A program made the position numbers and the translations under genes. The notes below the pieces were generated by a model, which saw only the letters and a program-made list of their open reading frames with translations, was not told where the DNA came from and searched no databases. A stretch of 64,000 bases of DNA, taken from an uncultured Gammaproteobacteria bacterium. GTDB lineage: Bacteria > Pseudomonadota > Gammaproteobacteria > SZUA-229. How positions within the stretch are numbered: the first letter of the stretch is position 1; each line of letters begins with the position of its first letter. The stretch lies in contig CAVWXQ010000006.1 in NCBI GenBank assembly GCA_963759005.1, forward strand, positions 17,020 through 81,019. The letters run 5' to 3'. Positions 7,194 through 46,106 of this stretch are shown here, one piece after another.

Positions 7194-7205
7194 TTGACAT
7201 AACCC

Positions 7206-13613: not shown

Positions 13614-13630
13614 TTACCATAGGCACGGAC

Positions 13631-15208: not shown

Positions 15209-15689
15209 GGAAAAATAAGACACCCATAGTTTAAAAACAAAAAAATCCAGGTTTTTCTACTAACCTTTTCACTGCTAATGTCCCGTTAACGGTTAGAGGT
15301 AATCATAGGCCGCCAATATATCCAGGTTAAATCCTCTACAGTAAATGCTTATAGTGTGATGGAATCTTCTCACTTAAAGTACCAGATATATTAACAAAAT
15401 CACGTGTTTAGATATGACTAGATTTACCGCAGATAATGGTAAATGTGTGATGTTTCTCCTATGATTATTATGTCGTAGCGCCATGCTCTAACGCTACTTA
15501 CTATATAATTGCTCAGCGTAATTTTTGCGGAGTGTGCAGGTTGTTGATTTATATGGCATCTGCAACAGGACGATCCAGCAGGGCTTACAGGAACGTAACC
15601 ACACGTTTTATAAATCAATATCCTCTGTCTTTATTTCTAAACACGCTGAAAAATACCTTATAATAAACCTGCTTATATAGATTTGAAAT

Positions 15690-16580: not shown

Positions 16581-16731
16581 TCCGATATTAACGGATACGG
16601 ATAAAATCACCTGAATGACAGCAGCAAAGTCCAGTGGCTTAAGGAAGCTCAGATCATGTCCAATTATTTTAGGCCAGTTAAAATTGGCTGAAACGGATTG
16701 ACAATGATTTTAAGTTGACTGCGCCGTTTAA

Positions 16732-17238
16732 ATGTATATATTCTTGACTATGGATATTCTTATGAAGCTGAGTAAACTAGTGCAGATTGTATTGATTGCA
16801 TCCACTTTTCTGGTTTATACAGAAGTACTTGCTGAGGAACTGACTAGTTACGCTTTCGTCAATGACGATGCCACATTACGCATCAAGAAGAAAACGATTC
16901 ACCTTTACGGCATTCATATCCCAAAATCAAGTCAGGACTGTAGAACCAGTCAACACCCGCCTGTTTGTGGCTCACGCGCTGTACTGGCTTTAGAGTTTAA
17001 AGTTAAGAGTTTTGTTCGTTGTGAAATCATCAGTGAAAACCCTAACGCAAGCCTGACGGGATTGTGCCGGGTAAATTATTCACATTTTGAAGAAGGTGAT
17101 GATTTAAGTGCTTATTTGCTTGAACGCGGTTGGGCTGTGGCGTTACCTGATGCGCCCATTGAGTATCACACGCTTGAGAAAATAGCGCGGTCACGCGGCA
17201 TGGGTGTTTGGGGTATGGCGGGGGCATACGGTAGATAG
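16732..17238 (+). CDS. Secreted thermonuclease (SNase)-like protein
   Basis: Signal peptide; SNase-like spacing. Confidence 0.5.
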   Translation: MYIFLTMDILMKLSKLVQIVLIASTFLVYTEVLAEELTSYAFVNDDATLRIKKKTIHLYGIHIPKSSQDCRTSQHPPVCGSRAVLALEFKVKSFVRCEIISENPNASLTGLCRVNYSHFEEGDDLSAYLLERGWAVALPDAPIEYHTLEKIARSRGMGVWGMAGAYGR

Positions 17239-17673
17239 ACCATAATGAGTCAGCTTTAAACATCTTTCCAGGTTTTAAAAAAACTGGAGTCTACGTTACT
17301 TCGATTATTAACTTCAGATGTAAGCGCACCATCTCCAAAAAACCATTAAGCTTGCGACAAAAATTCTTGTCCAAAGTTGGTGTGTCATTAGAAAGAGGCG
17401 CAGTTTTTTTGATTGTTGATTTACATTGCGCATTTTTTCTAGGCAGCTTTATACAGAGCGTGTTCTACCATGCTCCCCTGCAGCGGAACAATGCCCACAA
17501 TGTATTGCAGAAGATGTTTTAGTCGAGCTTTTAAGAAAAGCTAAAGGTATGGCGAGTATAATCAGGAATCATCACATAATCACATATAATATCCACGACA
17601 ATGTCGTTCCACTTTTACTGTTGCTTACTTCACCACTGAATATTGTAAAAAATATACAATAGTATCTAAATGA

Positions 17674-25407: not shown

Positions 25408-27537
25408 GTGGCCGCAGGCGGTATTAGTGTTATTGTCGCTATATTATTGATTTTCTTTTATTTGTTGTACGTTGTTATACCGATGTTTGGTTCGGCTGAA
25501 ATAAAAGAGAAGGTGACGTATACGGCTTCTGCTGAAGCTAGAACATTACATCTCGGGCTTGAAGAGCAGGGTACCATTGGTGTCAGATTTACCGATAATG
25601 CTCACGTTATTTTCTTTAATACCGAAACTGGCGACACCGTTGCTGATGAATTTTTAGATCTTCCGGCAAAGATAAGCAGTGTGGGATCGAATCTGAATAT
25701 TGTCGTGTTAGGTCTTGAAAACGGCTCGGCCCTGGCAGTGCGCTATAAATTCGATTTAAGTTACCCTGATGATGTTCGTGTGCTTACGCCCAGGCTTGAA
25801 TTCCCGTTAGGTGAAGAGCCTTTGTCGCTGGATGAGTCTGGACATGCACTGGCACAGATCGCCATTCAGCTGAGTGAAAATGTTGTCGGTCTGGGGGCAA
25901 AAACAGTCGACCACCGTTTAGTGTTTGCACGTTACCTACGCGAAGAGTCTTTCATTAGTGGCGAGATCACTATTGAACTTGAGTCACGGTCCGAGCTGGA
26001 ATTTGAAGGTAAAATTAGTTCGATTGCCTTGTCTCCCGGACTGGATCACCTTTATGCGGCGGCTGAAGATGGGATTCTGGTAGATTATTCGCTTGATGAA
26101 GATGGTGCTGATGGCGTAGCTAAAGAGTATAAATTTAAACACGAAATCAGTCATCTTAAAATGCTATTGGGCGGTTCTTCATTACTGGTTGGGCTGGAGA
26201 ATGGCGAAGTTCAGCAATGGATGTCAGTACGAAAAGAAGGTGGCAGAGAATTAACATTCATCCGCAACTTTCATGAAAGTAATAACCCGGTTACTTATAT
26301 TGCAACTGAGCAGCAGCGTAAAGGTTTTGCGGTGGCTGACACAACTGGTCAGATTACGCTTTTTTATTCTACCTCGCAAAGAACGCTGGCGAACATCAAT
26401 ACTGCAAATGCTTCGATTGAACAAATGGCGTGGTCAGCTCGCGCTCAAAACCTGCTGGTTGTCGACAGTTCGAATAAGATACATTTTTATGATGTTCATA
26501 ATGAGTATCCAGAAGTATCATGGGATGTACTGTGGGGGAAAATCTGGTACGAGGGTTATGATGAACCGGATTATATCTGGCAGTCATCTGCTTCTACCAA
26601 TGAGTTTGAGCCCAAATACAGTTTAATGCCGCTTGCCTTCGGCACGATCAAAGCCGCTTTTTATGCGATGATTTTTGCTGTGCCTATCGCTATTTTTGGT
26701 GCCATGTTTACCGCTCAGTTTATGGCGCCGCGTATGCGCCAGACAGTTAAACCGGCAATTGAAATAATGGAAGCACTGCCAACCGTTATTCTTGGTTTTC
26801 TCGCGGGCCTGTGGCTGGCGCCGTATGTTGAAACACATCTTGCCGGTATTTTTACGATGCTACTGATATTGCCTGCAAGTTTTATATTATGTGCTTGGCT
26901 TTGGGGATATGTTCCCGGCAAATCAAAATTCGAAGGCTGGGAAGCAGCGTTATTAATTCCGGTAGTATTAGTTCTCATCTGGATTTCATCAAATCTAAGT
27001 TCACCTATTGAATCACTGTTTTTTGACGGCGATCTACGCTCCTACATGAGCAATGAATGGGGGCTTAACTATGATCAGCGCAACGCACTGGTAGTGGGTT
27101 TGATTATGGGTTTTGCTGTTATTCCTACCATATTCTCTATTGCAGAAGATGCACTATTTGGTGTGCCGCAACACCTGGTACGTGGCTCACTGGCACTTGG
27201 TGCAACACGCTGGCAAACCATGACAAGTGTTGTTTTGCCTGCGGCTAGTCCAGGTATATTTTCTGCAGTAATGATGGGTTTTGGTCGCGCTGTGGGTGAA
27301 ACCATGATCGTATTAATGGCGACAGGTAATACGCCATTAATGGACATGAGTTTGTTCCAGGGCATGCGTACACTTGCCGCAAATCTTGCAGTAGAAGTAC
27401 CGGAAGCCGAGGTTTTTAGTACGCACTATCGCGTTTTGTTCCTGGCTGCACTTGTATTGTTTATCTTTACTTTTGTGTTTAATACATTAGCCGAGATAAT
27501 TCGTCATCGATTACGTGAAAGGTATAGCGGCTTATGA
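25408..27537 (+). CDS. pstC: Phosphate ABC transporter permease PstC, long form
   Basis: The EAA-loop region is conserved. The N-terminus appears to begin at ATG 25338 in another frame (MKDQSLQKRYNQRS..), which implies a +1 shift near the A4 run at 25383. Confidence 0.85.
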   Translation: MAAGGISVIVAILLIFFYLLYVVIPMFGSAEIKEKVTYTASAEARTLHLGLEEQGTIGVRFTDNAHVIFFNTETGDTVADEFLDLPAKISSVGSNLNIVVLGLENGSALAVRYKFDLSYPDDVRVLTPRLEFPLGEEPLSLDESGHALAQIAIQLSENVVGLGAKTVDHRLVFARYLREESFISGEITIELESRSELEFEGKISSIALSPGLDHLYAAAEDGILVDYSLDEDGADGVAKEYKFKHEISHLKMLLGGSSLLVGLENGEVQQWMSVRKEGGRELTFIRNFHESNNPVTYIATEQQRKGFAVADTTGQITLFYSTSQRTLANINTANASIEQMAWSARAQNLLVVDSSNKIHFYDVHNEYPEVSWDVLWGKIWYEGYDEPDYIWQSSASTNEFEPKYSLMPLAFGTIKAAFYAMIFAVPIAIFGAMFTAQFMAPRMRQTVKPAIEIMEALPTVILGFLAGLWLAPYVETHLAGIFTMLLILPASFILCAWLWGYVPGKSKFEGWEAALLIPVVLVLIWISSNLSSPIESLFFDGDLRSYMSNEWGLNYDQRNALVVGLIMGFAVIPTIFSIAEDALFGVPQHLVRGSLALGATRWQTMTSVVLPAASPGIFSAVMMGFGRAVGETMIVLMATGNTPLMDMSLFQGMRTLAANLAVEVPEAEVFSTHYRVLFLAALVLFIFTFVFNTLAEIIRHRLRERYSGL

Positions 27538-32947: not shown

Positions 32948-33937
32948 ATGAGACATAAACGTATTACATGCAGGCTGAACACAGCTTTAACAGGTTCATT
33001 ACTGGGTATTGGCTTATTGCTGTCAGGCAGTTCTTCAGCTGTATCCGTTGATGAAGGCATAGCTGAATATAAAGCAGTCAGTGGCATATCGGGTAACTTA
33101 TCCAGCGTCGGTTCTGATACGCTGGCAAACCTGATGACTTTATGGGCTGAGGCATTCAAGCGTTCTTACCCGAATGTGAATATTCAGATACAGGCGGCGG
33201 GTTCATCTACTGCACCGCCAGCGTTAACAGAAGCAACCTCTAGTTTTGGCCCGATGAGCCGTAAGATGAAATCAAAAGAAATTGCTGCTTTTGAAGATCG
33301 TTATGGTTATAAACCAACGGCTATTCCTGTCGCTATTGATGCATTGGCTGTATATGTCAATAAAGATAATCCTGTAAAAGGTATGTCTATTCCAGATGTT
33401 GATGCGGTATTTTCATCAACCAGAAAATGTGGAAATGATAAAGACATTAGCAAATGGGGTGATCTGGGATTGTCAGGTAACTGGAGTAACCGTGATATCC
33501 AGATCTACGGTCGTAACTCGGTATCAGGCACCTATGGTTACTTCAAAAAGAAAGCACTGTGTAAGGGCGACTATAAAAACAATGTAAATGAGCAGCCTGG
33601 CTCAGCATCCGTTGTTCAGTCTGTATCAAGCTCGGTAAATGGTATTGGTTATTCTGGTATTGGCTATAAAACATCCGGCGTGCGTGCGGTACCTTTGACT
33701 AAAAAAGCAGGTGGAAAATTAATCGAAGCGACGCCAGATAACGCAGTAGCAGGAACCTACCCGCTGTCACGTTTTCTTTATGTCTATGTTAACAAGCATC
33801 CTAACAAGGAATTAGCACCACTGGAAAAAGAATTTATTAAACTTGTTCTTTCTCAGCAAGGCCAGGAAGTTGTTATTAAAGACGGTTATATCCCTTTACC
33901 TGCAGAAGTGGTAAAAAAATACCTGGGAAATATTTAG
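32948..33937 (+). CDS. pstS: Phosphate-binding periplasmic protein PstS
   Basis: Signal peptide and PstS-like sequence ([11 protein letters not shown]). Confidence 0.9.
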
Positions 33938-34116
33938 AGAGCCTTGCACGATGTGGATTTTTCGTCATGGCAAGGCAAGCATTGTCGAAAAAGCGCAGTT
34001 TACAAGTAGTAAATGAGCATTTTGAGACTATTTTTAACGCCGCCATGGCGGAAAAGATGCTTCGTGTAAAGTTCTCTAGTAGAAAAAAGTTAATTTAATC
34101 GATTTAATTTAAAGAT

Positions 34117-34146
34117 GATTTAAATAAATGCCGTGCATGCCCGGCA
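34117..34146 (+). terminator. Rho-independent terminator after pstS
   Basis: aatgccg-tgcatgcc-cggcatt stem followed by a T-run. Confidence 0.65.
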
Positions 34147-34887
34147 TTTTTTATTTTTCCAATAAGATAAAAGCAAGAGCGATGCGCTATCGTAGGATGA
34201 ACCATTTCCACCTGGCTAAATGTACGAGTAGTTGACACCAGGTACGCACGGGGCGCTCTGCTATTCATCAAATAGTTACATGATGGATCTGGGCAGGCGT
34301 TGGCGCAGATTAATATTTAGCTCAATCATTCTGTCACAAACATCAGTTTTAAATGATTTCGAAATATTGGAACCATGTAACCTTTTCATGGTGAGCTAAT
34401 GAGTATGTTTACTATGTACAGAGTGCATCGTTTAATGTTGGCAGAACTATTCATTTATATATCTATAATTAATTCAGTCTGCCATTGAGTCTGCCATCAG
34501 CGACAGGTTTAACATGTCATGTGCGACAGGAAATGATACCTGAAATGACAGTTATATTAGAATATTATTATCCGGTTTTAATCTGGTCGTATGGCATGTA
34601 TTTTAATTATTTTTTTACAGTGTAAATAAAATCGACGGTTTTTGTCTGGCAATGGCGCGTTTACGTTAAGTAAACCTATGTCTCTTGTTAAAAAAATCGA
34701 CGGTTTTAAGTTAGAAACTAGAAGAGATATACTCTTTATTGTCATGATTTAAATAAATATAAATTGTTTTTATTTGTCCTTATTAAGGCTATTTGTTACG
34801 CTGAATTAATATGTTGTCAGAAAATTGACATTCGTCACTTTTCGGTGCTATATTTCCCGTCAATTAAGTAATGATGTTACTTAACTT

Positions 34888-35320
34888 ACCTAAATGTCAG
34901 TCGGGGTTCTTCTGGCTGTAAAAGAAATTCAAGGATTTTTAACATGGACATGGATCTATTTATCATGGATTTTTTTATCATAAATATAATTTGAGGAATT
35001 GTTTTCCTCTTATTTAATAGTACCTAAATGTCAGTCGGGGTTCTTCTGGCTGTAAAAGAAATTCAAGGATTTTTAACGTGGACATGGACATATTTAACAT
35101 GGACATGGATCTATTTATCATGGATTTTTTTATCATAAATATAATTTGAGGAATTGTTTTCCTCTTATTTAATAGTACCTAAATGTCAGTCGGGGTTCTT
35201 CTGGCTGTAAAAGAAATTCAAGGATTTTTAACATGGACATGGATATATTTAACATGGACATGGATTTATTTATCACGGATTTATAATAAACATAATTTTG
35301 AGGAATTGTTTTCCTCTATG
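34888..35320. repeat. Three tandem copies of a 134- to 155-bp AT-rich repeat inside a 1.4-kb non-coding leader
   Basis: Units start at 34888, 35022 and 35177. Each contains sub-repeats aacatggacatggat and a gaggaattgttttcctc hairpin. The second unit has a 24-bp internal duplication. Confidence 0.85.
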
Positions 35321-35399
35321 AGTATGGTTATGGCAAAAAGTTTGTGATGTTAATAAATTTTTATAAATTAACTAAAAACAATATTAATGAGGATGTGAG

Positions 35400-38300
35400 A
35401 ATGTTTATAAACACTCTGAAACAATTTCTCCGAAAAGCGACTTTTCTAACTGCTGCTGGTGCAATTATTTTTGCAACAGCAATGGTTACTTCTGTTGATG
35501 CAAGGGCCGGAGATATAGATATAGACCGCGCAAGCTGGAGCAACGACCGTGATCGACTGACAGTGCGTGGTGACAATGCACGAGATAACGATACCGTTAC
35601 TATCAGGTATGGTAAAAAAGAAGATAATGGTGTCGTGATTGGCACTACTCAGGCGGACGGTGATGGTGATTGGGAGTTTCGTATCTCTGCTATCGATCCA
35701 GTGCCGTGTGATGTAACCGCAGTAGACAGTCGCGACGACGATGATAAGGAAGTACGACGTGCACCAAGAGACTGTAGCAACGACGGTGGAGCACCACCAG
35801 CTGCGCAGTGTAACGATGGTATTGATAATGATGGCGATGGACTGACAGATTTTCCAGCTGATCCCGGATGTACGGATGTCAACGACAACGATGAGTTCAA
35901 TGCACCGCCACAACAAGATGCACAGTGTAACGATGGCCTCGATAACGATGGCGATGGCCTGACCGATTTTCCGGCTGATCCCGGATGTACGGATGTCAAC
36001 GACAACGATGAATTCAATGCACCGCCACAACAAGATGTGCAGTGTAACGATGGCATCGATAACGATAACGATGGTCTGACCGATTTTCCGGCTGATCCCG
36101 GATGTGTGGATGCTAACGACAATGATGAAATTGATCCTGTCGCGGTGAACTGTACGCCGCTTACCGGTAAATCCATTAACTCTACCAGCCAGACAGGTTG
36201 TGCAGAACAGGATGTACCCGAGGTTGCCACACTGCTAAATGGCAATTTCCGTGTATTAGCCATCAACGACCTGGGTATGCACTGTGGTGATTACGATACC
36301 CGTATCTCCAGTATCCTGCCACCATTCCAGGTACTGCTAGGCCAGGTGATCCAGCGCGGCGCTACGCCAACGTTGAACCCGGAGGGAGTGAGCCTGTCGT
36401 ACTCTGCGACTTCTAACTCGCAAGATCCTGTCCTGAATCGGATCGGAGCTATACGCGGCCTGAATGACGATGGTACCACTTACAAGACTAACTTCTGGGA
36501 TGCGGTTGCAGGCGGTGCTTATGATCCGTTCTACCCGGCCATTGTTACACCGTTGCTTAATGGACCGTTCCCGGTCATCGCGGACATCGGCCTGCCGGTA
36601 CCCAATGTGGAAGAGCTCTACATCGGTGCAGACGGTGTGGTCAACAGCGGCGACGAGACTCTCAGCGCAGTGCAGCACACCATGCCAGGGCTGAACAACC
36701 CATACTGTCCTCAACGATCCAAAGACGGTCAACGAGCACTATGGCGACAAGCCCTTCTTCGTTAACTTCCCGTTCGGTTATGTAGCTGAGAATGTGAACT
36801 GGTACGAAGGTGCAGGCGTTCCGTTAGCCGCTTATGATGATTTCGGTTATGAGAACTCCTACCCACTGGTTCGCGTTGAAGCCAAGCAGGGCAACACCAC
36901 TGTTGCCACGATTGATACCGTGCTGCCAATCTCCGGTGAGGCAAGCTGCATCAACTGTCACTCCGATCCAGCCGACGTGCAGACCAGCCGTACCAGTCAA
37001 CCAACTGATACGCTGGTTACTGCCGGACTGCCGGTGGCAGTAAGTCTGGATGATCCGGACCAGAACCTGCCTATTGACGTCAGCACCGAATATGCAGCGG
37101 ACATCAACATCCTGCGTTTGCACGATCTGAAACATGGTGCGAACTATGTGGACACCGCTGGTAGCATCAACACCGTGTGACGTTACTGCCAATGCGGGCA
37201 ACGGCGATGCCAACTGCCTGATTAACAAGGCGCTGGTGCAGGGCGAACCGGCGGTCTGTCAGACGTGTCACTACACCCCGGCGCTTGATCTTGCGCAGGT
37301 TGGTCCTGTAGCCGGTGCTGTTGGTACCGATGCCAATGGACGTAACCAGGTGGCGCATTCAAGTAACTCCAACGTAATGCACAGCCACCACGGTGGTCTT
37401 GGTAACCTGTTCCCGCCAATGCCGGCACCGATTCAGAACGGCTGATGGTACTATCACCAACCAGACCGATCGTCTGGCGGTGTTAGAAGATACCTGTTAC
37501 CAGTGTCACCCGGGCACCACCTCGCAGTGTCTGCGTGGCGCGATGTTCAACGGTGGCATGCTGTGTAACGACTGCCATGGCAGCATGGAGCAGGTCGGTG
37601 CTGACTTCTCCGCTGGTGTCTCTCCACAGAACCCGGGTGCGTTTGTGCTGGGCGGCAACTTCTATGACCCTAACGACCCGCAACCGCGTGTGCCATGGGC
37701 CAACGAGCCGGGTTGTGGTTCATGCCATACCGGTGACGTCCGCGACAACATGGCGGGTACAGCCAATACTATAGCCAATACACGTGATGTAGACGGCAAC
37801 GTCGACAATCTGCGTCTGCGCGTGGCGTACGTAGCGGATCCGAATGACCCGACGGTCAATCCGAAGGCCGCGCCTATCGTACCTACCAACAAGCGCTTTG
37901 CTGAGCCAGCCGTTCCGGCTACGTTTACTAACGCTGACGGCAGTACGTTTGCCAACCCGGGTGCGGGTAATCCGCAGCTGTACCGGGTGAGTACCGGTCA
38001 CGGTGGTGTCATGTGTGAAGGCTGTCATGGTGCAACCCATGCGGAATGGCCAAATGCCAATCCGGCATCCAACGACAATGTCACGGCAGATCAGTTCCAG
38101 GGTCACACCGGCCCTATTATCGAGTGCGGCGAGTGTCATACCGACATCAACGCTCTGGGTACTAACGGTTCTACCAACAGCCTGCAGGGACCACACGGCA
38201 TGCATGTAGTGGGTAACACAAGCTTCGCTGACGGTGGCCATCAATCAAACCTCAATCGCAATGCCTGTCGCGACTGTCATGGTCAGAACGGTGAAGGTTC

Positions 38301-38403
38301 GGTGTTATCACGCACTGCCGCTGACCGTAACCTGCCGGATGTTGGTTTTGTGGCTAAAGGTACACCTATCACCTGTGATATGTGTCACGGACAGGAGCTG
38401 TAA
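35400..38403 (+). pseudogene. Secreted fusion of thrombospondin-type-3-like repeats with a nonahaem cytochrome c domain, roughly 1000 aa, interrupted by three frameshifts
   Basis: Signal peptide MFINTLKQFLRKATFLTAAGAIIFATAMVTSVDA. There are three roughly 40-aa repeats QCNDG.DNDGDGLTDFPADPGC.D.NDNDEFNAPPQQD that are near-identical at the DNA level. Nine CxxCH motifs run across frames (CINCH, CQTCH, CYQCH, CNDCH, CGSCH, CEGCH, CGECH, CRDCH, CDMCH). The frame switches near 36700, 37150 and 37425. Confidence 0.8.
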
Positions 38404-38440
38404 CAGCTAAACTGACGGCAGGACGCTGTCTTTAATCAAA

Positions 38441-38471
38441 GGCCTCACCGGGAAACCGGTGGGGCCTTTTT
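38441..38471 (+). terminator. Rho-independent terminator
   Basis: ggcctcaccgg-gaaa-ccggtggggcc stem followed by T5. Confidence 0.75.
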
Positions 38472-38650
38472 ATGTACAGGATGTACGGTATGCCGCGGGC
38501 GCATGGATGCGCAGGAGCGGTGAATGTACAGGATGTACGGTATGCCGCGGGCGCATGGATGCGCAGGAGCGGTGAATGTCAGGATGTACGGTATGCCGCG
38601 GGCGCATGGATGCGCAGGAGCGGTGAATGTCAGGATGTACGGTATGTCTA
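38463..38650. repeat. Roughly 3.3 tandem copies of a 57-bp R1-family unit
   Basis: caggatgtacggtatgccgcgggcgcatggatgcgcaggagcggtgaatgt(a) repeated. Confidence 0.85.
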
Positions 38651-38865
38651 AAAGAGCCATGGATGGAGGTGAGACGAATGCCAATTTATGGGAGGTATAC
38701 TCTTGCCTAAGAGTCAGAACGGCTTAAAGACAGTAATAAACGAGTGTATAGAGATATCTGGGATGCTCAATGCATTATTTTCTTTCATAAACCTAAAAAA
38801 ATCAGTTAACCCTACCGAGTTGATAAAACAGGCATAAATTCTGCTTTTTTGTCTCCCGCCTAGTT

Positions 38866-40416
38866 TTACCCCGATTCAGGTGCTAACTTTTGTGCATAAT
38901 CAGCCACTGAGTCAGCAAATTCATCCATTATTTTTGCCAATATTTGTTCCCAACAGGATGTAGATGTTAACTGCGGAGCAGTTGATTTTAACGTGGCAAA
39001 AAATGTGGACAACCGCTTATAGCTTGCCTGGATATGTTTTAATCTACCGTGGCTACTGGTGACGACCATGCGCTTCTGGCGACCCGATTGTGTGAGCCTA
39101 CCAATGCTGGTTAACATTAATGGTCGACTGGTGATGGCTTCTAATCTTTTGCCGGGGTTGGCTAGCCGGACAAATAAACTCCACCAGTTGTAAACCAATG
39201 CGATGATTCGGGATATGAGCTGGCAACTTGTTAGATCTTGTGTGGTAAAGCCAGCCCATCCCCATTGGTTTTTCATTTCATCAAACGTATTTTCACAATC
39301 GGCTCGGTCTCTGTAGTGTTGAAGGATGGTGATTTCTTCATCTTGTAAACTGGTGACAAGCACGGCGTATTCATACGCACGTATATCTTCAGGGCCATCG
39401 ATAAATGCCAGCTGTTTCTGGTTGTTTACTTCGTATTCCATGCCAATGATACTGTCACTGTTGAGGCGTCTGCGGACAATGACAACACGTCTTGTTTTTT
39501 CCCAGCTTTGTAATTGTAAAGTATCTGATTTCACCTCCCAGCCTTCATTGAAATAATTCCACTCACCGAGGCAATGGTGCTTGTATATGAGTTCTTTTAC
39601 GTACTTTGATTTTTTAAGCTTGAACAAATAGTCCTGCTTTCTTGTTTCTAACTGGGTCATCACATGATCACTGCCCCAGTCACAATCACCACGCACAAAA
39701 CGGGGCTGGCAATCATCAGGAAGCCTGTCAAGTAAACGGATCAATCCGGGCAGTGAGTAGGAGGATTGCGTTTGTATACCTGACTGGACTTCAACTTCAA
39801 GAACTAACCTCAGATTGCTCATCATGTAAGTATGATACGTATGAGAGGGTCGGCCAGGCTTGTGTGGATTGTAACCAATGTCAGCGCCTTGCTGGTGGCC
39901 GTAAAGCGGTTTAACGGTCACATCAGTATCTAATATCCATGGCTTTTTTAGCAATGGTTCATAACTGATTTGCAGGTGTTTTTGTAACCATTGTATGCCG
40001 TCACTTTCCTCAATCTTTTTTAATGCACGCCGAGCGGAATCATCGCTGACTATTTTACTCATGCCCAATAACCCACAATTAACTTTATCGTTAAGCAGGC
40101 TTGTTATATGTGAATAACGTTTGTGCCCTGACAATACTGATAATAAAAAAGTACCCAGTATGTCAATTTTTTCCGGCGCATTGTTACTTTTGTAAATCAA
40201 AGGACAATCATTCACCCAAGGCGTGAATAAATGGCCAATTTTTAAAAACTCGATAAAAAAAGGCAATTGACCAAGAGGGGTAACGGCAGCATCTGGATCC
40301 CATTCTACAAATACTTTCCCATCAAAGGTTTCGACTTCTATCGCTTGTGAAAGTGCTTTTTTGGGTGGGTTTGTGACTTCACCTTGTGGATGAATGATTG
40401 CAGGAGGTAAAACCAT
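38866..40416 (-). mobile_element. IS1380-family DDE transposase gene (insertion sequence)
   Basis: 516 aa with GYNPHKPGRPSHTYH and RADCENTFDEMKNQ blocks typical of IS1380-family transposases. The IS ends were not resolved. Confidence 0.75.
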
Positions 40417-40957
40417 TAATTTTCTCTCTGGAGTCAGGTAGTTATAGCTTTATACTCTCTTTTAACTGATTTTTTAAGGATAAAGATATAAAAGAGCGAC
40501 TGAATGCCGCTTTTTTTGTATACCCTGTGACTAAAGAGGGGGGGCTTTTAGTCCCTTTTCTAGTCCAGCAACTTTAAGCCAGTGGTGGTTAAGTTTTTTT
40601 TAAGGTTTGGCAGTATTTTTTTCATTATAATCTTGCGTAGTATATGAAAACGATATTTTTCGCTTAGCATGCTTGGTGATCAGAAGTGCATAGGGGCATC
40701 GGGATGGATGTTTCTATGCGTTTTTTTACTTACATATAAACAGTATATTACCTGTCTGGTCCGAAAATCCTTCAGAGAAAACGCCTGACTCAACCCTGCT
40801 TTCTGCATTTGACATCCATGGATGAAGGCAATGCAGCTGGATTATAGGGACAATCCTTGCCATGCAGTCGTGTGCTTAAAAGTCAGCAAAACTCTATGGT
40901 GATTAATTAGAGTGACCTTGATCAGTTTTCATTGCATCTAATCTAATCTAATCTGGT

Positions 40958-41501
40958 TTATTGTTTAGTGCTGTCAGCTTTTCCAGTCTCTTTGATGAGT
41001 TTTTTTATTTGATTAATAATCTGCTCATCATTCCAGTCAGGATTGCCGCGCAAGCGGTAGCGAGTATGGCCTTCACCATCAAGCAGAAAACTGGTGGGCA
41101 GTATTTTAATGTCCCAGCTGTGGAAGACTTTACTGGATGGGTCGAGGAGTACCGGCAAATTGAAATTCATTCGTTTTGCAAAGTGTTTCACCTTGTCTTT
41201 CGCCTTCACCGACATTGAGTGCAAGGATCTCAAATGGCTGGTCAGCCAGTTGCTTTTTAAGTTGTGTTAGATCTGGCATTTCCTCAACGCAGGGTAAGCA
41301 CCAGCTTGCCCAGAAGTTCACTAACACCACCTTGCCTCTGTAGTCCGACAGTGAGTGTGTCTGTCCTTTGAGATCGGGCAGGTTGAATTGTTTATCAACA
41401 GCACCGGTATATGGCTCCAGCTGTTCACCATAAACCAGTAATGGTGATAACAGGCAAGCCAGCATTAACATGGTCGAACTTTTTAATGTTCTGTATTTCA
41501 C
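40958..41501 (-). pseudogene. Second TlpA/ResA-like thioredoxin (paralogue of 13080..13613) with a frameshift near 41200
   Basis: The N-terminal part carries WASWCLPC. The C-terminal part (KVKHFAKRMNFNLPVLLDP...LLDGEG) continues in another frame. Confidence 0.65.
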
Positions 41502-41540: not shown

Positions 41541-42546
41541 TTAACCGCCGGTCATGCTCATCAAACGAACAACCTGGTCAGGTTTATCTTTAAATTCGTG
41601 TTTTTCTGGTTTTTGCCTGATTGCATCTATCAGAACATTTTTTAATTCATCGTCACTAATTCCATTGCGTAACAGCGGACGTAATTCAACTTTGTCATCC
41701 TGCCCCAGGCACAGATAAAGTGTGCCATCGACTGATAAACGCACGCGGTTACAGGTCTCGCAAAAATGCTGTGAAATAGGAGTAATAAAGCCAATGCGTA
41801 AATTCGTGTTTTTAATTTGAACGTATCGAGCAGGTCCGCCACCGGACATGACACCGGTAATAAACTCATAACTTTTAGACAATTGCTTCTTAACAGTCTG
41901 TAAGTCGAGGTAGTGGTCTGTCGCATCGTTAGCCGGTAGCGCCCATAGGCATGGTTTCGATAAAGCGTAAAGTAAAATCATGTTCCAGACAAAATTCAAT
42001 CATGTCTGCAAATTCATCATCATTAATGCCTTTCATGGCAACCATGTTGATTTTGATGGGTGAAAAACCTGTCTGTTTTGCTGCCATTAAGCCATCTAGC
42101 ACCGGTTGTAGCTGACCACCAGTAATAGTTTTAAACCTTTCCGCCTGTAAACTATCCAGACTGACATTGATTCTTGAAACACCGGCGTTTTGTAAAGCGT
42201 TTGCCTGTTTATCAAGTAACACCGCGTTGGTGCTGAGTGATAAATCGTTCAGACCGGGCAGGGCGGTAAGACGTTGTGATAGTTCAGCAACGTTTTTTCT
42301 AAGCAGCGGTTCGCCACCCGTAAGTCTGACTCGGGCAACGCCAAGTTCGGTGAAGGCTTTTATAATGCGTTCAATTTCATCAAAAGTGAGCCAGTGCTCA
42401 GGCTGTTCAAAATCCCTGAAGCCTTTGGGCATGCAGTAGAAACAACGTAAATTACATTTATCCGTTACTGATAGACGCAGATACTCTATTCGACGGCCGA
42501 AAGGGTCGATGAGTGCAGCGTCGTTTTGTGTGCCTGTGTTATTCAT
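41541..42546 (-). pseudogene. moaA: GTP 3',8-cyclase MoaA (radical SAM) with a single frameshift near 41935
   Basis: CNLRCFYC radical-SAM motif in the N-terminal part and GVMSGGGPARY...FCETCNRVRL in the C-terminal part. The two ORFs overlap at 41929-41999 in different frames. Confidence 0.8.
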
Positions 42547-42835: not shown

Positions 42836-43177
42836 ATGGTAGAAATCGATTATGAAGACTCGCATAACTCAGCGCCAGAACCCAATCATTTATTCCCGAT
42901 GTTATTTCAGAGTTTAATTTCTGATTTTTCAAACGGCGGTAACAGCCCTGCAAATGAATATTCAGCGCAGGAGACTAAAGCCAGGTTCAATGCAGATTGG
43001 GCAGCTGTTGCGCTAATGGATGTGACGCGGGATTTTTCAGATCAATATGCTCAGCTACTATTGCTGGCCCTGCATAAAAATAATGCATCGGATGCCTATG
43101 TACTTGTACTGTTCGATGATTACCAGGCGGTTAAGCCCGAAATCAACTCTGTTCTGAACAGCCTTAAATTTAAATAG
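42836..43177 (+). CDS. Hypothetical protein
   Basis: ORF only. Confidence 0.3.
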   Translation: MVEIDYEDSHNSAPEPNHLFPMLFQSLISDFSNGGNSPANEYSAQETKARFNADWAAVALMDVTRDFSDQYAQLLLLALHKNNASDAYVLVLFDDYQAVKPEINSVLNSLKFK

Positions 43178-43874
43178 CTGCTTTACTGTGGGAATTTTTG
43201 CTGCCGTATTTAGCGGCATTAACCATAGCGGTATTTATCTTAGCGGTAAAAACCAGGTATCGTAAAGTACCACCAGCCGTTAGTGCATCGAAGGGGTAGC
43301 AGGTGACTAATACTAGTGTCGGGTAATCTACATTCGGCTGTAACGACACTAGTTTACTATCAACAATTTGCAGCTTATAAACCTGGTAGGCAAAGGTTTT
43401 GTCTGGTGTTTCAATATAGATTGTATCGTTTACTTTCAGCTCTTTGAGAAAGTTAAAATGCGTGTCACGGTGAGCACTGATCATTGTTGTCCCTGCTGTA
43501 TTTGGCCTGGCACTGGCAAAAGAATAACCCGGTCCGAAAGCCAGGCTGTTACCGTTATCACCGGCGAGAATTATCTGTTCGATGTTGTGCTCGGGTACCA
43601 GAAGTTTTGCTACAGGCCAGGTGTCAGCCCATGGCCAGGGTTTATTAATACTGCCTTGTTGGCCATTATTTTTATATGAGTCATTTAGGGTTTGCTTCCA
43701 GGCATAATTAAGCAGTTGTTGTGCAATGATGGCTTTTCCCTGTATCCAGCCTGCCGAAGCAAGTTGCCACAGGCTGAGGCTGAGTAATAAAACAATAATA
43801 ACGGGTGTAACTTTTCCTGCATATTGATGGAACAACGTAGACATAAATCTTACCTGCATTATCGAAAAGGGCAC
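43170..43874 (-). CDS. Sortase, proteobacterial (marine) dedicated type
   Basis: Sortase fold with catalytic TLVLVTCYPF (a TLxTC-type motif) and an N-terminal TM anchor. Confidence 0.8.
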   Translation of the reverse strand: MPFSIMQVRFMSTLFHQYAGKVTPVIIVLLLSLSLWQLASAGWIQGKAIIAQQLLNYAWKQTLNDSYKNNGQQGSINKPWPWADTWPVAKLLVPEHNIEQIILAGDNGNSLAFGPGYSFASARPNTAGTTMISAHRDTHFNFLKELKVNDTIYIETPDKTFAYQVYKLQIVDSKLVSLQPNVDYPTLVLVTCYPFDALTAGGTLRYLVFTAKINTAMVNAAKYGSKNSHSKAAI

Positions 43875-46106
43875 TTAGTTAATAGCGTTTGCTCTGCTTT
43901 GATCAGTTATTAAACTTTTCCAGACGTACAACAATATAGCCGTGATAAAAAGGATTAAGGCCAGTAGTAAGTTTAGTTTTGAGCTGCTTGCTGTTTGTGC
44001 AAGCATAAGTCCATTAGTTGCGACTGAATTTTTCCAGCCATGCGGCAGGTTATTTTTCAAACGTTGACGATATAACATACCGTCAGCATTTACCGGTGTT
44101 ACGTCAACAGCCACCAGGCTGGTATAACGGCTAACCAGGTGATGTTCCAGCGCGGTAGTCGTTACTTCGTTTTTTATCGCATCACGTTCATTTTCGGTTG
44201 TTGATTCATGTTGCAGGGTCATTAGTGAGGCGATTTTTTCACGCGCCCAGGCAATTCGAATGCCACTTTGTATTGTGCCTGTTGGTTCGCTGGTAGTCTG
44301 CCACTCGCCATTTCCATAGTCGCCTTTTACTGTAATGTTACCCGGTAGCTGTTTACCTTTAATCAGGATAGTTGCTGTTTCACCTGCATATAAATCGGGA
44401 ATGATCTTCGGGAACACTTCATAAACATTTTTATCAGTTGTATTTGAGCTTATAGCTAATTCAATATTAATTAATGCTGGTGTTTCAAGTTTTTTAAACA
44501 GCGTTATGGTTTTTTCCTGGACTTCGTTAATATCGCCAATATAGGTAAATGTACCACGTCCTTTACTGGCAGCTTTAGACATAAAGTATGCGTTAGGCGC
44601 AGAACCAATGCCAATAGTGAACAGGCGGTTGTTTCCTAATTGCCTATCTATAACATCAAATAGTTCTGCTTCATTACTGATGTTGCCATCCGTTAAAAAT
44701 ATTACCTGTCTAAAGCGCGAGAATTCTTCATCATCTGATAATGCAAGTTTCAGAGCAGGTAACATTTCTGTACCGCCATCAGCCTGTAGGTTCTCAATAA
44801 AATGTTTTGCCATGTTTTTGTATTGCCTGGTAGCGGCAACAGCTGTGGAAAATAAACGATCAGTTTCATCGTTAAACCAGATGATATTAAATCGGTCAAT
44901 TGCATTAAGGCCATCAAGTGCGGTTATTAACGAAGCTTTTGCCTGGTTTATAGAGGTGCCGGACATAGAGCCTGATATATCAAGAACAAACACCACGTCA
45001 CGTTCCTGTACTTTTTGTTGTAAATGACTGAGCTCAGGTGGTAACAGGGTAAGCATCGTATAATGTTCAGCATTGATGTTGTTATCTGTGCTTTCACTGA
45101 AGCCGGACAGCTGTGGCTGGTTATTTAGCTGTGGTTTCCATACCAGCTCAAAATCGCGATCAGCAGCAATGTTTTCGCCGATGGTGGCAATGCTGTAACG
45201 TGTTTCACTGGTCTGATTGATATTGATACCATGATAAGAACTGCTCAGGTCATAAAGGCTGACTCCTGCATCAAGTAATACATGAATACGTACCCGGTTT
45301 TCTGTGTTGTTTAGCAAATCAGTTTCCGTGTAAACGCTGGTTTCATCGTGCGCAGGATCAGGTGGACTCTGGATTGAAGCCTGGTTGGTATGATTCTGTG
45401 CGCTGTGATAGCGGGGGCCAACAACCATTGGAAAACGTAATCGGTAACTGTTATTCTTATAATCAAGAACTTGCTGGAATTCAAATTCAACAGTAATTTC
45501 TTCACCAGGTGCAATATTAGCAAGCGAGGTAGTAAAAACATTAGGCCGTTGCTGTTCAATCAGGCTGGTTTTTTTACCTGCTTTTTTTGCACTTTCATAA
45601 CTTTTTTTAGCTAAAATACGTTCTTTTATCTGACCTTCAATAACACGTTCGCCAATGATCATTCTAAAATGATCAACCGCTGCATTTTCTGGTAACGGGA
45701 AAACATAAATACCTTCAACCCACAGTGAGCTGCTGTTTTTAAATCGCTGCTTAATTTTTGCCCGGGCAATGGCACCGGTTATTTCATAATCAACGTCGGT
45801 TTGCATTTGCATGGCTTCAATATAGTCACCATTGTCAGCTAGCATCCAGACAGAGCCGTGTTGGGATTGATAAGGGTCGAAACCCTTATCGCTAATGCTG
45901 GCATAAACATGCTGGAATAACAGCCCGAATACCAGATACACGCTCATTACAACCAGTACCTTATGAATAATAGTCAGTGTTTTTGAACAGGCCTTTAGTT
46001 TTATATTGTTTTGACTATTTTTAATGCGATGAAAATAATAATTATTCATGGTGTTCATATAACCACTCCTGCTGGCAGCACACGATGTGTGTGCCAGCAT
46101 TATCAA
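43875..46106 (-). CDS. Proteobacterial sortase target protein with VIT and vWA domains
   Basis: vWA MIDAS motif VVFVLDISGSMSG. The C-terminal sorting signal is LAQTAS, then the TM segment LNLLLALILFITAILLYVW and a basic tail. Confidence 0.8.
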   Translation of the reverse strand: MIMLAHTSCAASRSGYMNTMNNYYFHRIKNSQNNIKLKACSKTLTIIHKVLVVMSVYLVFGLLFQHVYASISDKGFDPYQSQHGSVWMLADNGDYIEAMQMQTDVDYEITGAIARAKIKQRFKNSSSLWVEGIYVFPLPENAAVDHFRMIIGERVIEGQIKERILAKKSYESAKKAGKKTSLIEQQRPNVFTTSLANIAPGEEITVEFEFQQVLDYKNNSYRLRFPMVVGPRYHSAQNHTNQASIQSPPDPAHDETSVYTETDLLNNTENRVRIHVLLDAGVSLYDLSSSYHGININQTSETRYSIATIGENIAADRDFELVWKPQLNNQPQLSGFSESTDNNINAEHYTMLTLLPPELSHLQQKVQERDVVFVLDISGSMSGTSINQAKASLITALDGLNAIDRFNIIWFNDETDRLFSTAVAATRQYKNMAKHFIENLQADGGTEMLPALKLALSDDEEFSRFRQVIFLTDGNISNEAELFDVIDRQLGNNRLFTIGIGSAPNAYFMSKAASKGRGTFTYIGDINEVQEKTITLFKKLETPALINIELAISSNTTDKNVYEVFPKIIPDLYAGETATILIKGKQLPGNITVKGDYGNGEWQTTSEPTGTIQSGIRIAWAREKIASLMTLQHESTTENERDAIKNEVTTTALEHHLVSRYTSLVAVDVTPVNADGMLYRQRLKNNLPHGWKNSVATNGLMLAQTASSSKLNLLLALILFITAILLYVWKSLITDQSRANAIN

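What the first reader, a model, noticed from the sequence alone, without database searches (positions are those of the whole stretch)
33960..38700. Secreted protein fusing TSP3-like repeats to a nonahaem cytochrome c, behind a tandem-repeat leader and next to an IS1380 element
A single transcription unit encodes a signal peptide, then three near-identical roughly 40-aa Cys/Asp-rich repeats (QCNDGxDNDGDGLTDFPADPGC). These resemble thrombospondin type-3 calcium-binding motifs. It continues into a roughly 480-aa C-terminal domain with nine CxxCH haem sites. The bounds are a good SD at 35386 and a clean terminator at 38441. This architecture, a cell-surface-type repeat domain plus a multihaem c domain, is what an extracellular electron-transfer or mineral- or sulfur-interacting cytochrome would look like. 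I do not recognise it as a described family. It sits behind a 1.4-kb AT-rich leader with three roughly 135-bp tandem repeats, which could be a regulator-binding array or a phase-variable promoter region. The coding region is interrupted by three frameshifts, near 36700, 37150 and 37425. It is followed by 57-bp tandem repeats and an IS1380 element, so the current allele may be inactivated or phase-variable.
Basis: partly seen in the sequence, partly recalled or inferred. Interest (0 to 1): 0.85.

Follow-up and report, generated by a model that had tools for sequence, protein, structure and literature searches.

The report
Secreted nine-haem cytochrome, unnamed family
The gene is real and belongs to a large, conserved but unstudied family of secreted nine-haem cytochromes found mainly in sulfur-oxidising Gammaproteobacteria; its three "frameshifts" are most likely long-read sequencing errors, not inactivation or phase variation.

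Summary
One + strand unit (35401-38403) encodes a signal peptide, an Ig-like domain, three 39-aa acidic Cys/Asp repeats and nine in-frame CxxCH sites, once three single extra bases are removed.

The interpretation needs correcting.
- The repeats match NCBIfam NF033662 (acidic double-disulfide repeat), not Pfam TSP_3.
- The last ~745 aa are a highly conserved module found in over 2,600 database proteins, labelled only "PKD domain-containing protein" or "cytochrome C". Named sources are mostly sulfur-oxidising Gammaproteobacteria and symbionts.
- The same architecture exists intact, including at the same locus in a 95%-identical relative.
- No Pfam or NCBIfam model, solved structure or paper describes the module.
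- The frameshifts are probably consensus errors. Four other conserved genes or gene pieces in the window are also shifted, and the repaired protein keeps all 201 invariant family residues. The same gene is broken at different sites in two other "contig_N" assemblies but is intact in the short-read-style contigs examined.
- The IS1380-like element is a clean recent insertion, about 390 bp past the stop codon.
- The downstream repeat has a 51-52-nt unit, not 57. It forms covariation-supported hairpins with GGA loops and recurs after homologous genes in 10 other loci.

Function is inferred only: an extracytoplasmic electron-transfer protein or enzyme.

The parts
34126..34158 (+). Terminator-like hairpin plus T run after pstS. 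It separates the pst-pho operon from the cytochrome unit.
   Evidence: stem 34126-34149, then a T run; sequence.
34825..34854 (+). Promoter-like site TTGACA-18-TATATT with an extended TG. It is conserved upstream of the orthologues in L082 and L086, and more loosely in L034 and L085.
   Evidence: 11 of 12 matches; conservation seen. Not shown to be functional.
34888..35320 (+). Tandemly triplicated leader unit (about 133, 155 and 140 bp). Each unit holds 21-nt sub-repeats (TTTAACATGGACATGGACATA) and a GAGGAA-ttgtt-TTCCTC hairpin. There are 11 CATGGA motifs, all on the + strand.
   Evidence: Relatives carry 1-2 units and 2.2-4.3 sub-repeats.
35401..38403 (+). Gene for the modular nonahaem cytochrome c. 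It gives 999 aa after removal of three single extra bases.
35401..35502 (+). Sec-type signal peptide, aa 1-34, ending VDA.
   Evidence: Read from the translation. The same N-terminus occurs in P0001, L082 and L034. No predictor was run.
35503..35790 (+). N-terminal beta-sandwich (Ig-like) domain.
   Evidence: The equivalent residues 40-125 of P0009 have pLDDT above 90 and are all beta-strand. It is 88% identical to L086 and 51% to L082.
35802..36129 (+). Three 39-aa acidic Cys/Asp repeats (QCNDGxDNDGDGLTDFPADPGC).
   Evidence: TRF 117 bp x 2.8. NCBIfam NF033662 E 5.5e-19, three stretches. Pfam TSP_3 gives no hit.
36157..36946 (+). Conserved non-haem beta-rich domain with the invariant motif NDLGMHCGD. 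Boundaries are approximate.
   Evidence: Invariant columns. The model of P0073 is beta-rich over residues 69-305. There are 474 clusters at 50% identity among 1.84 billion representatives.
36947..38400 (+). Nine-haem domain: CINCH, CQTCH, CYQCH, CNDCH, CGSCH, CEGCH, CGECH, CRDCH, CDMCH.
   Evidence: Eight motifs are invariant and the ninth is at least 90% conserved across 127 homologues. Generic Pfam hits are Cytochrome_C7 and Cytochrom_c3_2; Mtrc-MtrF_II-IV scores 29.3 bits against a cut-off of 30.
36706..36708 (+). Frameshift 1: one extra base (CCATAC T/G TCC). No homopolymer or simple repeat.
37162..37164 (+). Frameshift 2: one extra base (GCTGGT A GCATCA).
37437..37441 (+). Frameshift 3: one extra base within CAGAACGGCT.
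38441..38472 (+). Intrinsic terminator of the cytochrome gene.
   Evidence: Sequence; folded; conserved in L034, L085, L086, L082 and L108.
38472..38680 (+). Tandem 51-52-nt structured repeat of about 4 units. Each unit holds the hairpins GUAC-AGGAU-GUAC and GCGC-AUGGAU-GCGC inside an outer CCGC/GCGG stem.
38792..40479 (-). IS1380-like insertion sequence, 1,688 bp. Its inverted repeats are CCTAAAAAAATCAGTTAA and CCTTAAAAAATCAGTTAA. A 5-bp target duplication (ATAAA) lies at 38787-38791 and 40480-40484. The transposase gene is 38866-40416.
   Evidence: It is 99.94% identical, without gaps, to two other copies in the same ENA assembly.
40480..40957 (.). Remainder of the conserved downstream intergenic region, split off by the IS. 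It contains CATCCATGGATG at 40813-40824 (the window's CATGGA hit at 40817 lies inside it).
40958..41500 (-). TlpA/ResA-like thiol:disulfide oxidoreductase gene, a recurrent neighbour of the family. It carries one extra base at about 41205.
   Evidence: The L082 orthologue hits ResA/TlpA models below their cut-offs. Such a neighbour occurs in 19 of 83 loci.

Best explanation
Window 35401-38403 encodes a secreted, modular nine-haem c-type cytochrome. It belongs to a large, strongly conserved but uncharacterised family whose named members come mostly from sulfur-oxidising Gammaproteobacteria.

Domain order (shown): Sec signal peptide; Ig-like beta-sandwich; three acidic two-cysteine repeats carrying a DxDxDG motif; a conserved beta-rich domain of about 250 aa with the invariant motif NDLGMHCGD; and a domain of about 485 aa with nine CxxCH haem sites.

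Domain roles (inferred): the repeats probably bind Ca2+ and act as a stalk. The variable N-terminal modules (PKD, ASH/Ig and cadherin-like domains in relatives) hold or expose the conserved C-terminal redox module outside the cytoplasm. There the haem chain carries electrons between the cell's periplasmic redox pool and an external or periplasmic substrate met at the non-haem domain. That substrate could be solid sulfur or a metal sulfide, or a soluble sulfur or metal species.

The three frameshifts are most likely single-base insertion errors in a long-read metagenome consensus, so the real allele is probably intact.

The gene has its own conserved promoter-like site and a long leader. The leader's unit is duplicated to different degrees in different strains.

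The gene is followed by its terminator and then by a conserved array of 52-nt structured repeats with GGA-loop hairpins.

An IS1380-like element has recently inserted into that downstream non-coding region without touching the gene.
For: Gene and motifs.

Family:
- 2,613 hits at E <= 0.001. The best are 82-88% identical over the C-terminal ~75% of the protein, with differing N-terminal domains. A second search from the L082 allele gave 1,985 hits.
- 201 columns are invariant among 50 members, and the repaired window protein matches all 201.
- The same architecture is intact in P0009. An intact gene lies at the syntenic site in L082, whose flanks are 95% identical at the DNA level.
- Named sources include Chromatiaceae, Candidatus Thiodiazotropha, tubeworm and Solemya symbionts, Thiorhodococcus and Arenicellales.

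Absence from curated and solved resources.

Repeats: NF033662.

Frameshifts as errors:
- There is exactly one extra base at each site against seven intact homologues.
- None of the sites lies in a repeat tract.
- At least four further shifts occur in the redoxin gene, moaA and the fdsB-like gene of the same window.
- The other IS copies of this assembly sit on contigs named contig_N, the Flye style.
- The homologous gene is shifted at different places in L034 and L085, which are also contig_N records. It is intact in the short-read-style contigs examined (NODE_ records and similar).

Neighbours: a two-component system lies upstream in 37 of 83 loci, and a TlpA-like redoxin is present in 19 of 83.

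Leader conservation.

IS.

Downstream repeat.
Against: - No reads were available, so the frameshifts cannot be proved to be errors.
- Three shifts fall in 3 kb of this gene, while 8.5 kb of the adjacent pst-pho genes and three 1.7-kb IS copies show none. A uniform error rate does not explain this.
- The sites are not homopolymers, which are the usual nanopore error context.
- That the assembly is nanopore-based is inferred from contig names and from my own recollection of the Microflora Danica project. It was not read from the record.
- The functional statement rests only on domain content, signal peptide, taxonomy and neighbours.
- No outer-membrane porin or MtrAB-like partner is conserved nearby. 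Whether the protein is periplasmic, on the cell surface or released is unknown.
- The very high conservation looks more like an enzyme, or a protein with fixed partners, than a simple electron wire.
Confidence: 0.7

Rival explanations
1. The frameshifts are real. The allele is a recently inactivated pseudogene in a genome that is undergoing IS expansion and gene decay. The redoxin gene, moaA and fdsB would be decaying as well.
For: - The IS copies are 99.94% identical, which points to recent transposition.
- Five of the shifts cluster within 6 kb around the IS.
- The shift sites are not homopolymers.
- Adjacent operons and the IS copies are free of indels.
Against: - The repaired protein matches 201 of 201 invariant family columns and has no in-frame stop codon.
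- Three independent indels in one gene without any other damage is improbable under neutral decay. From general knowledge, substitutions outnumber indels roughly ten to one.
- Six of the seven shifts seen in the window are +1 insertions, whereas bacterial decay is biased towards deletions.
- The same gene is broken at other positions in other contig_N assemblies and in none of the short-read-style contigs examined.
Confidence: 0.2
2. The shifts are functional: phase variation, or programmed +1 ribosomal frameshifting, controls expression of a surface protein.
For: All three shifts are +1, so together they restore the original frame. Copy number of the leader repeat varies between strains.
Against: - No simple-sequence tract or slippery or stall motif occurs at any site, and the three sites share no sequence.
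- Homologues, including the syntenic one, are single ORFs.
- Unrelated housekeeping-type genes in the window carry the same kind of lesion.
Confidence: 0.02
3. The module is not an electron conduit to solids. It is a periplasmic enzyme of sulfur metabolism, oxidising or reducing a soluble or stored sulfur species. The active site would be built from the invariant His-Cys of NDLGMHCGD and a second invariant extra Cys (CLRGAM), feeding the haem chain. This concerns function only and can hold together with the best explanation.
For: - Named members are almost all from sulfur oxidisers.
- Conservation is at enzyme-like levels, with 201 invariant columns.
- There are invariant non-haem Cys and His residues.
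- A thiol:disulfide oxidoreductase is a recurrent neighbour.
- No porin partner is conserved nearby.
Against: - The variable adhesin-like N-terminal modules (PKD, cadherin-like, Ig) are typical of exposed or secreted proteins.
- No similarity to any known sulfur enzyme was found.
- The model coordinates could not be inspected for the geometry of an active site.
Confidence: 0.3

Closest known systems
MtrC/OmcA/UndA outer-membrane multihaem cytochromes (Shewanella type)
   Same: Both are secreted multihaem c-type cytochromes that combine beta-rich non-haem domains with haem domains. There is a weak hit to Pfam PF22113 (MtrC/MtrF domains II/IV) over haems 6-9. A role in extracytoplasmic electron transfer is plausible for both.
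   Different: - It has nine haems in one block, not 10-11 in two pentahaem domains.
- It has no lipoprotein signal.
- The PF22113 score is 29.3, below the cut-off of 30.
- No mtrA/mtrB-like neighbours are conserved.
- No sequence or fold match to solved MtrC, OmcA or UndA entries was returned.
- It is much more strongly conserved in sequence.
NCBIfam NF033662 acidic double-disulfide repeat proteins (with thrombospondin type 3 repeats as a looser analogue)
   Same: The three 39-aa repeats score above the NF033662 cut-off. By eye, they share the DxDxDGxxD calcium-loop pattern with TSP3.
   Different: Pfam TSP_3 gives no hit. Here the repeats form only a short linker in front of a cytochrome module. 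In most relatives the same position holds PKD or ASH/Ig domains instead.
Nonahaem cytochrome c (NhcA/9Hc) of Desulfovibrio and OcwA of Thermincola
   Same: Each has nine CxxCH haem sites. The C-terminal piece hits the generic c3/c7-type Pfam models.
   Different: This comparison rests on my own knowledge of those proteins. They have about 300-500 aa and lack the conserved 250-aa non-haem domain. Neither appeared in the PDB sequence or fold searches.
IS1380 family insertion sequences
   Same: It has a DDE transposase (PF13701 above its cut-off). The best NCBIfam hit is transpos_IS1380. It is 1.7 kb long, its terminal inverted repeats start with CC, and it makes a 5-bp target duplication.
   Different: The NF033539 score is 125 bits, below the curated cut-off of 180, so it is a divergent member.
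CsrB/RsmY/RsmZ-type RNAs, and REP/BIME extragenic repeats
   Same: The downstream 52-nt units carry AGGAU and ANGGAU in the loops of small hairpins whose stems co-vary. From my own knowledge, this is the look of CsrA/RsmA binding sites. Like REP elements, related hairpins are scattered through other intergenic regions in both orientations.
   Different: - There is no Rfam match.
- No promoter or 3' terminator of its own was identified.
- The array lies after the gene's terminator.
- No csrA gene is in the DNA at hand.
- Nothing shows that it is transcribed or bound.

Membership tests
Unnamed nonahaem cytochrome family (database labels 'PKD domain-containing protein' or 'cytochrome C') | Full-length similarity of the C-terminal module of about 745 aa, including the NDLGMHCGD domain. 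| tested here: met
   82-88% identity to P0001, P0006 and P0008 over about 75% of the query, E = 0. All 201 invariant columns are matched.
Unnamed nonahaem cytochrome family | Nine conserved CxxCH motifs in register. | tested here: met
Unnamed nonahaem cytochrome family | Covalent haem attachment and redox activity. | not testable with these tools
   Needs haem staining, mass spectrometry or spectroscopy of an expressed member.
MtrC/OmcA/UndA decahaem outer-membrane cytochromes | Pfam PF22113 pentahaem domain above its gathering score, present twice. | tested here: not met
   One stretch only, 29.3 bits against a cut-off of 30. For P0073 the score is 25.4 bits.
MtrC/OmcA/UndA decahaem outer-membrane cytochromes | Lipoprotein signal and an adjacent MtrA/MtrB-type periplasmic cytochrome and porin. 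| tested here: not met
   The signal peptide has no lipobox cysteine. No such neighbour appears among the conserved clusters in 83 loci.
MtrC/OmcA/UndA decahaem outer-membrane cytochromes | Fold similarity to solved members. | tested here: inconclusive
Thrombospondin type 3 repeat (Pfam TSP_3) | Match to the Pfam TSP_3 profile. | tested here: not met
   No Pfam family at E <= 1 for the 473-aa N-terminal piece.
NCBIfam NF033662 acidic double-disulfide repeat | Profile score above the curated cut-off, in tandem copies. | tested here: met
   67.6 bits against a cut-off of 41, three stretches. P0009 scores 60.4 bits.
IS1380 family | Transposase match to the family model. | tested here: inconclusive
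   NF033539 is the best hit (E 2.2e-36), but its 125 bits fall below the cut-off of 180. Pfam PF13701 scores 74.3 against a cut-off of 34.7.
IS1380 family | Terminal inverted repeats and a short target-site duplication that bound a discrete mobile copy. | tested here: met
   The ends were defined by two further copies at 99.94% identity. The inverted repeats are 18 nt long and start with CC, and the target duplication is ATAAA.
Pseudogene (real inactivation) | Lesions present in the organism's DNA, accompanied by signs of relaxed selection. | tested here: not met
   No sign of relaxed selection was found, and the lesion pattern fits assembly error. Whether the lesions are present in the reads is not testable here.
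Phase-variable gene (slipped-strand type) | Frameshift located in a homopolymer or short tandem repeat tract. | tested here: not met
   The sequence contexts are CATAC-T-GTCC, GGT-A-GCA and AAC-G-GCT.
Csr/Rsm-type CsrA-sequestering RNA | Multiple GGA motifs presented in hairpin loops. | tested here: met
   There are 12 GGA in 209 nt, all on the + strand. The hairpins are supported by covariation: 93% of cells paired, five pairs changed on both sides, and 0 of 500 shuffles reached the observed score.
Csr/Rsm-type CsrA-sequestering RNA | A discrete transcript with its own promoter and terminator, similarity to a known family, and a csrA gene in the genome. | tested here: inconclusive
   No Rfam hit. 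No promoter or terminator was assigned. No csrA was found in the 2 Mb fetched, but the genome is not available.

The most novel reading that the evidence does not exclude
Two readings remain open.

1. The conserved 745-aa module, made of the NDLGMHCGD beta-domain and nine haems, may be a new kind of extracytoplasmic redox enzyme or conduit specific to sulfur-oxidising Gammaproteobacteria, including chemosynthetic symbionts. It would link their sulfur metabolism to an external or stored solid substrate. Its exposed N-terminal modules would be swapped by recombination between alleles.

2. The gene may be tied to a previously undescribed class of tandem 52-nt GGA-loop hairpin RNA repeats. These would act after transcription, as a CsrA-type sponge or as a 3'-end element.
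Probability: 0.3. Interest if true: 0.75.

Novelty: new variant of a known kind. Interest (0 to 1): 0.45.

Why it matters
Sulfur-oxidising Gammaproteobacteria drive sulfur and carbon cycling in sediments and in chemosynthetic symbioses: free-living Chromatiales, and the symbionts of lucinid clams, Solemya and tubeworms.

A secreted nine-haem cytochrome that recurs across these groups, sometimes in more than one copy per genome, is an obvious candidate for an unassigned redox step. It is conserved at 50-88% identity between the members compared here, yet it is absent from Pfam, NCBIfam, the PDB and the searchable literature. Possible roles are contact with solid sulfur or metal sulfides, extracellular electron exchange, or periplasmic sulfur chemistry.

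The work here supplies intact representatives that could be expressed (P0073 as the minimal form, P0009 with the same architecture as the window). It also supplies a confident structural model.

Two smaller points are of practical use. This gene is repeatedly fragmented in long-read metagenome assemblies, so automated annotation will under-count it. The conserved GGA-hairpin repeat after the gene is a testable candidate RNA element.

Tried and rejected
- **TSP3 assignment:** rejected. Pfam gives no hit.
- **Recent horizontal transfer inferred from the GC excess** (0.53-0.58 against 0.42): not accepted as such. The gene is richer in GC than its flanks in most of the loci checked, including L082, L034 and L003.
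- **First structure prediction** (P0009 with 50 sequences): pLDDT 54, so it was not used for fold search.
- **PDB sequence and profile searches:** only the PKD parts of relatives hit.
- **Looking for the window's own record:** two look-ups found nothing on record. The genome contigs and metagenome-contig scans found no allele closer than 84-86%. A direct comparison with an independent assembly of the same strain was therefore impossible.
- **Literature:** seven searches found no description. The closest paper, PMC6850669, concerns other multihaem cytochromes that were picked up with Pfam PF09699 and that cluster with Candidatus Tenderia electrophaga and Leptothrix sequences.
- **Rfam** on 33800-41000: only two chance-level sRNA hits.
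- **A sequence motif shared by the frameshift sites** (methylation-type systematic error): none seen by eye.
- **Pho box in the leader:** only a partial resemblance by eye, so it was dropped.
- **csrA** in the fetched DNA: none.
- **Organism name:** only "Gammaproteobacteria bacterium" labels were obtained.

Full report
**What is in the sequence**

Four + strand ORF pieces cover 35344-38403, in frames 1, 2, 0 and 1. The real start is ATG 35401, seven bases after GAGGA. Joining the pieces gives about 1000 aa.
- The protein begins with a Sec-type signal peptide.
- A domain of about 95 aa follows. In the equivalent part of homologue P0009 it is a confident all-beta sandwich.
- Three 39-aa acidic repeats follow, encoded by a 117-bp repeat in 2.8 copies at 35802-36129.
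- A stretch of about 250 aa without haem sites comes next.
- The last 485 aa carry nine CxxCH motifs, all in frame.
- A + strand terminator lies at 38441-38472.

The repeat periods needed correction: the upstream unit is 155 bp (three units of roughly 133, 155 and 140 bp at 34888-35320), and the downstream period is 51-52 bp, not 57.

**What the protein is**

- *The repeats.* Pfam finds nothing in the N-terminal 473 aa, so TSP_3 is not supported. NCBIfam identifies the repeats as NF033662, the acidic double-disulfide repeat (E 5.5e-19, above its cut-off).
- *Pfam hits in the haem domain.* The C-terminal piece hits only generic multihaem models. The MtrC/MtrF domain model falls just below its cut-off.
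- *Size of the family.* A search of 5.8 billion proteins returned 2,613 hits. The best are 82-88% identical over the last ~75% of the query, and their N-terminal parts differ: PKD, ASH/Ig-like, cadherin-like or none.
- *Names and sources.* The only names are "PKD domain-containing protein", "cytochrome C" and "hypothetical". Where the source organism is named, it is nearly always a sulfur-oxidising gammaproteobacterium. Examples are Chromatiaceae, Candidatus Thiodiazotropha, symbionts of Solemya, Lamellibrachia and Escarpia, and Thiorhodococcus. Arenicellales MAGs also appear.
- *Paralogues.* Several MAGs and the Lamellibrachia barhami endosymbiont genome appear twice in the locus list, so some genomes carry more than one copy.
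- *Conservation.* Fifty members share 201 invariant columns. These include NDLGMHCGD in the non-haem domain, eight of the nine haem motifs and ten further histidines.
- *The window's architecture exists intact.* P0009 has the N-domain, two acidic repeats and the module.
- *The non-haem domain alone* finds 474 clusters at 50% identity among 1.84 billion representatives.
- *A distant paralogue* with an ELGMHC motif lies nearby in 9 loci.

**Is the family described?**

- No PDB chain matches, either by sequence or by profile, apart from the PKD domains of relatives.
- Haem-free models compare poorly with holo-cytochromes, so this is absence of evidence, not proof of a new fold.
- Seven full-text searches found no paper on the family (paper read).

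The family itself is common in databases, and the domain combination is not exceptional within it.

**The frameshifts**

- *Nature of the lesions.* DNA alignment with seven intact homologues shows exactly one extra base at each site: about 36707, about 37163 and 37437-37441. None lies in a homopolymer or short repeat. This excludes classical phase variation, and there is no slippery or stall motif.
- *No decay.* The repaired protein agrees with all 201 invariant columns. Real family members, when left out in turn, miss 0.78 on average.
- *Other genes are hit too.* The window has further single-base shifts in the neighbouring redoxin gene, in moaA and twice in an fdsB-like gene. Complex1_51K, for example, is split across two ORFs.
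- *Source of the contig.* The window comes from a 101,066-bp contig held by NCBI and ENA. Its IS copies lie on records named contig_11529 and contig_67978 in ENA ERZ25039508, the naming style of long-read assemblers.
- *Other assemblies.* In two other contig_N records the homologous gene is also shifted, at different places (L034 once, L085 three times). L085 also has split PPDK and VgrG genes. In the short-read-style contigs examined (L001, L082, L086, L091 and others) the gene is intact.
- *Conclusion.* I take consensus error as the likely cause, at about 75%.
- *Points against.* The shifts are unevenly spread: there are none in 8.5 kb of pst-pho genes, nor in three IS copies. They are not in homopolymers. 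A real, very recent pseudogene remains possible, at about 20%.

**The locus in relatives**

- *Synteny.* L082 comes from a genome whose pst-pho operon is 95% identical in DNA to the window. It has an intact 947-aa gene at the same place, followed by the redoxin gene and no IS.
- *Divergent alleles at one locus.* The two alleles are only 49% identical in the module and 51% in the N-domain. The leader, the signal peptide and the 3' flank are conserved at 85-89% DNA identity.
- *Mosaic origin.* The window's N-domain and module resemble L086 (88% and 85% identity). Its acidic repeats resemble L082 (75-77%), whereas L086 has ASH/Ig domains in that position. The locus therefore carries mosaic, exchangeable alleles.
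- *GC content.* The gene is richer in GC than its flanks in most of the loci checked. The GC excess is not evidence of a recent transfer.

**Flanking non-coding DNA: upstream**

- After the pstS terminator (34126-34158) there is a conserved promoter-like site at 34825-34854.
- The triplicated leader unit follows. Relatives have one or two units and 2.2-4.3 copies of its 21-nt sub-repeat.
- The leader has 20 GGA on the + strand against 4 on the - strand. Its 11 CATGGA motifs are all on the + strand.

**Flanking non-coding DNA: downstream**

- *The unit.* Each 51-52-nt unit folds into GUAC-AGGAU-GUAC and NNNN-ANGGAU-NNNN hairpins inside an outer stem.
- *Covariation.* Across ten distinct units from seven sources, 93% of cells pair and five pairs show changes on both sides. 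The loop GGA is invariant, while the N before it takes all four bases. None of 500 shuffles reaches the observed score.
- *Distribution.* A covariance model finds 35 matches in 2.05 Mb. Of these, 32 lie immediately downstream of the homologous cytochrome gene, in the window and 10 other loci, including genes only about 52% identical with a different terminator. One lies upstream of the gene in L085. Two weaker matches lie elsewhere in the window, at 4967-5041 and 8334-8385.
- *Dispersed relatives.* Related single hairpins occur in other intergenic regions of the window, in both orientations.
- *Reading.* This looks like a dispersed REP-like family whose loops resemble CsrA/RsmA sites (my own knowledge), strongly enriched after this gene. 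Rfam has nothing like it. Whether it acts as RNA is untested.

**The IS**

- Its ends are fixed at 38792-40479 by two other copies that are 99.94% identical and gap-free.
- It has 18-nt inverted repeats that start with CC and a 5-bp duplication, ATAAA.
- It is IS1380-like, although the NCBIfam score falls below the cut-off.
- It sits inside the conserved downstream non-coding region, about 390 bp after the stop codon. It interrupts neither the cytochrome gene nor the redoxin gene.

**How it probably works**

- *Shown:* the signal peptide, the modular extracytoplasmic-type N-terminal domains, nine conserved haem sites, a conserved non-haem domain, and a distribution dominated by sulfur oxidisers. 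Also shown are frequent upstream two-component systems (37 of 83 loci) and TlpA/ResA-like redoxin neighbours (19 of 83).
- *Inferred:* the protein works outside the cytoplasm as an electron-transfer protein or enzyme, and the haem chain links the cell's redox pool to a substrate met at the non-haem domain.
- *Open:* whether that substrate is solid (sulfur, sulfides, an electrode-like acceptor) or soluble cannot be decided.
  - The lack of a conserved porin partner and the enzyme-like conservation favour a periplasmic or secreted enzyme.
  - The adhesin-like modules favour surface contact.

**Verdict**

The gene is a real and almost certainly functional-type member of an uncharacterised but widespread cytochrome family. 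The inactivation and phase-variation story is probably an assembly artefact. The family and its companion hairpin repeats are worth experimental attention, but the instance in this window is ordinary within its family.

Noticed in passing
window 41541-42546 (-), 40958-41500 (-), 56821-58314 (+): moaA is split into a Radical_SAM piece and a Mob_synth_C piece. The TlpA-like redoxin gene is split once. An fdsB/NuoF-like gene is split into three ORFs. With the cytochrome gene, that makes at least seven single-base frameshifts in 64 kb, and six of them are +1.
   Followed up: partly
window 38472-38680; also L053:12186-12644, L058:6822-7075, L060:12261-12520, L142:4523-4626, L085:10605-10758, L034:13441-13899, L108:2954-3136, L091:4003-4195, L052:12322-12423: A 52-nt tandem unit with two GGA-loop hairpins follows the terminator of homologous cytochrome genes in the window and in many other loci. 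These include alleles only about 52% identical. The stems co-vary and the loops are AGGAU and ANGGAU. They resemble CsrA/RsmA sites, but Rfam has no match.
   Followed up: yes
window 4940-5045, 5870-5885, 7200-7600, 8330-8390, 9540-9555: Related single hairpins (for example GTGCATGGATGCAC and CACCATGGATGGTG) and GCTCCTCGGCAAC-type modules occur in several other intergenic regions, in both orientations. This suggests a dispersed REP-like repeat family in this genome.
   Followed up: partly
window 35401-38403 compared with L082:12063-14906 and L086:1724-5044: Two genomes that are 95% identical in their flanking DNA carry alleles only about 49% identical in protein at this locus. The window allele is a mosaic: its N-domain and module resemble L086, and its acidic repeats resemble L082. 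Leader, signal peptide and 3' flank are conserved, which suggests cassette-like allele exchange.
   Followed up: partly
window 25408-27537 (+): The first pst permease gene encodes a 709-aa protein. A WD40-like beta-propeller region lies in front of the BPD_transp_1 membrane domain. The same arrangement, at 732 aa, is conserved in L082. This is an unusual PstC architecture.
   Followed up: no
window 43170-46106 (-): A sortase gene lies next to a gene for a 743-aa VIT/von Willebrand factor A protein. This is a sortase-substrate-type pair in a Gram-negative genome.
   Followed up: no
L013:18033-20204 and equivalent ORFs in 9 loci: A distant paralogue of about 720 aa lies within a few kb of the family gene in 9 loci. 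It has an ELGMHC...LPPYN motif, several CxxCH sites and the LHD..HG motif. This suggests a wider superfamily.
   Followed up: partly
L090 (Solemya velum symbiont, GCA_002020415.1) 12435-17297: In the Solemya velum symbiont, the family gene lies about 2 kb from a cluster of other multihaem cytochrome genes (NapC/NirT-type, Cytochrome_C554-like, Multi-haem_cyto) and a cytochrome b gene.
   Followed up: no
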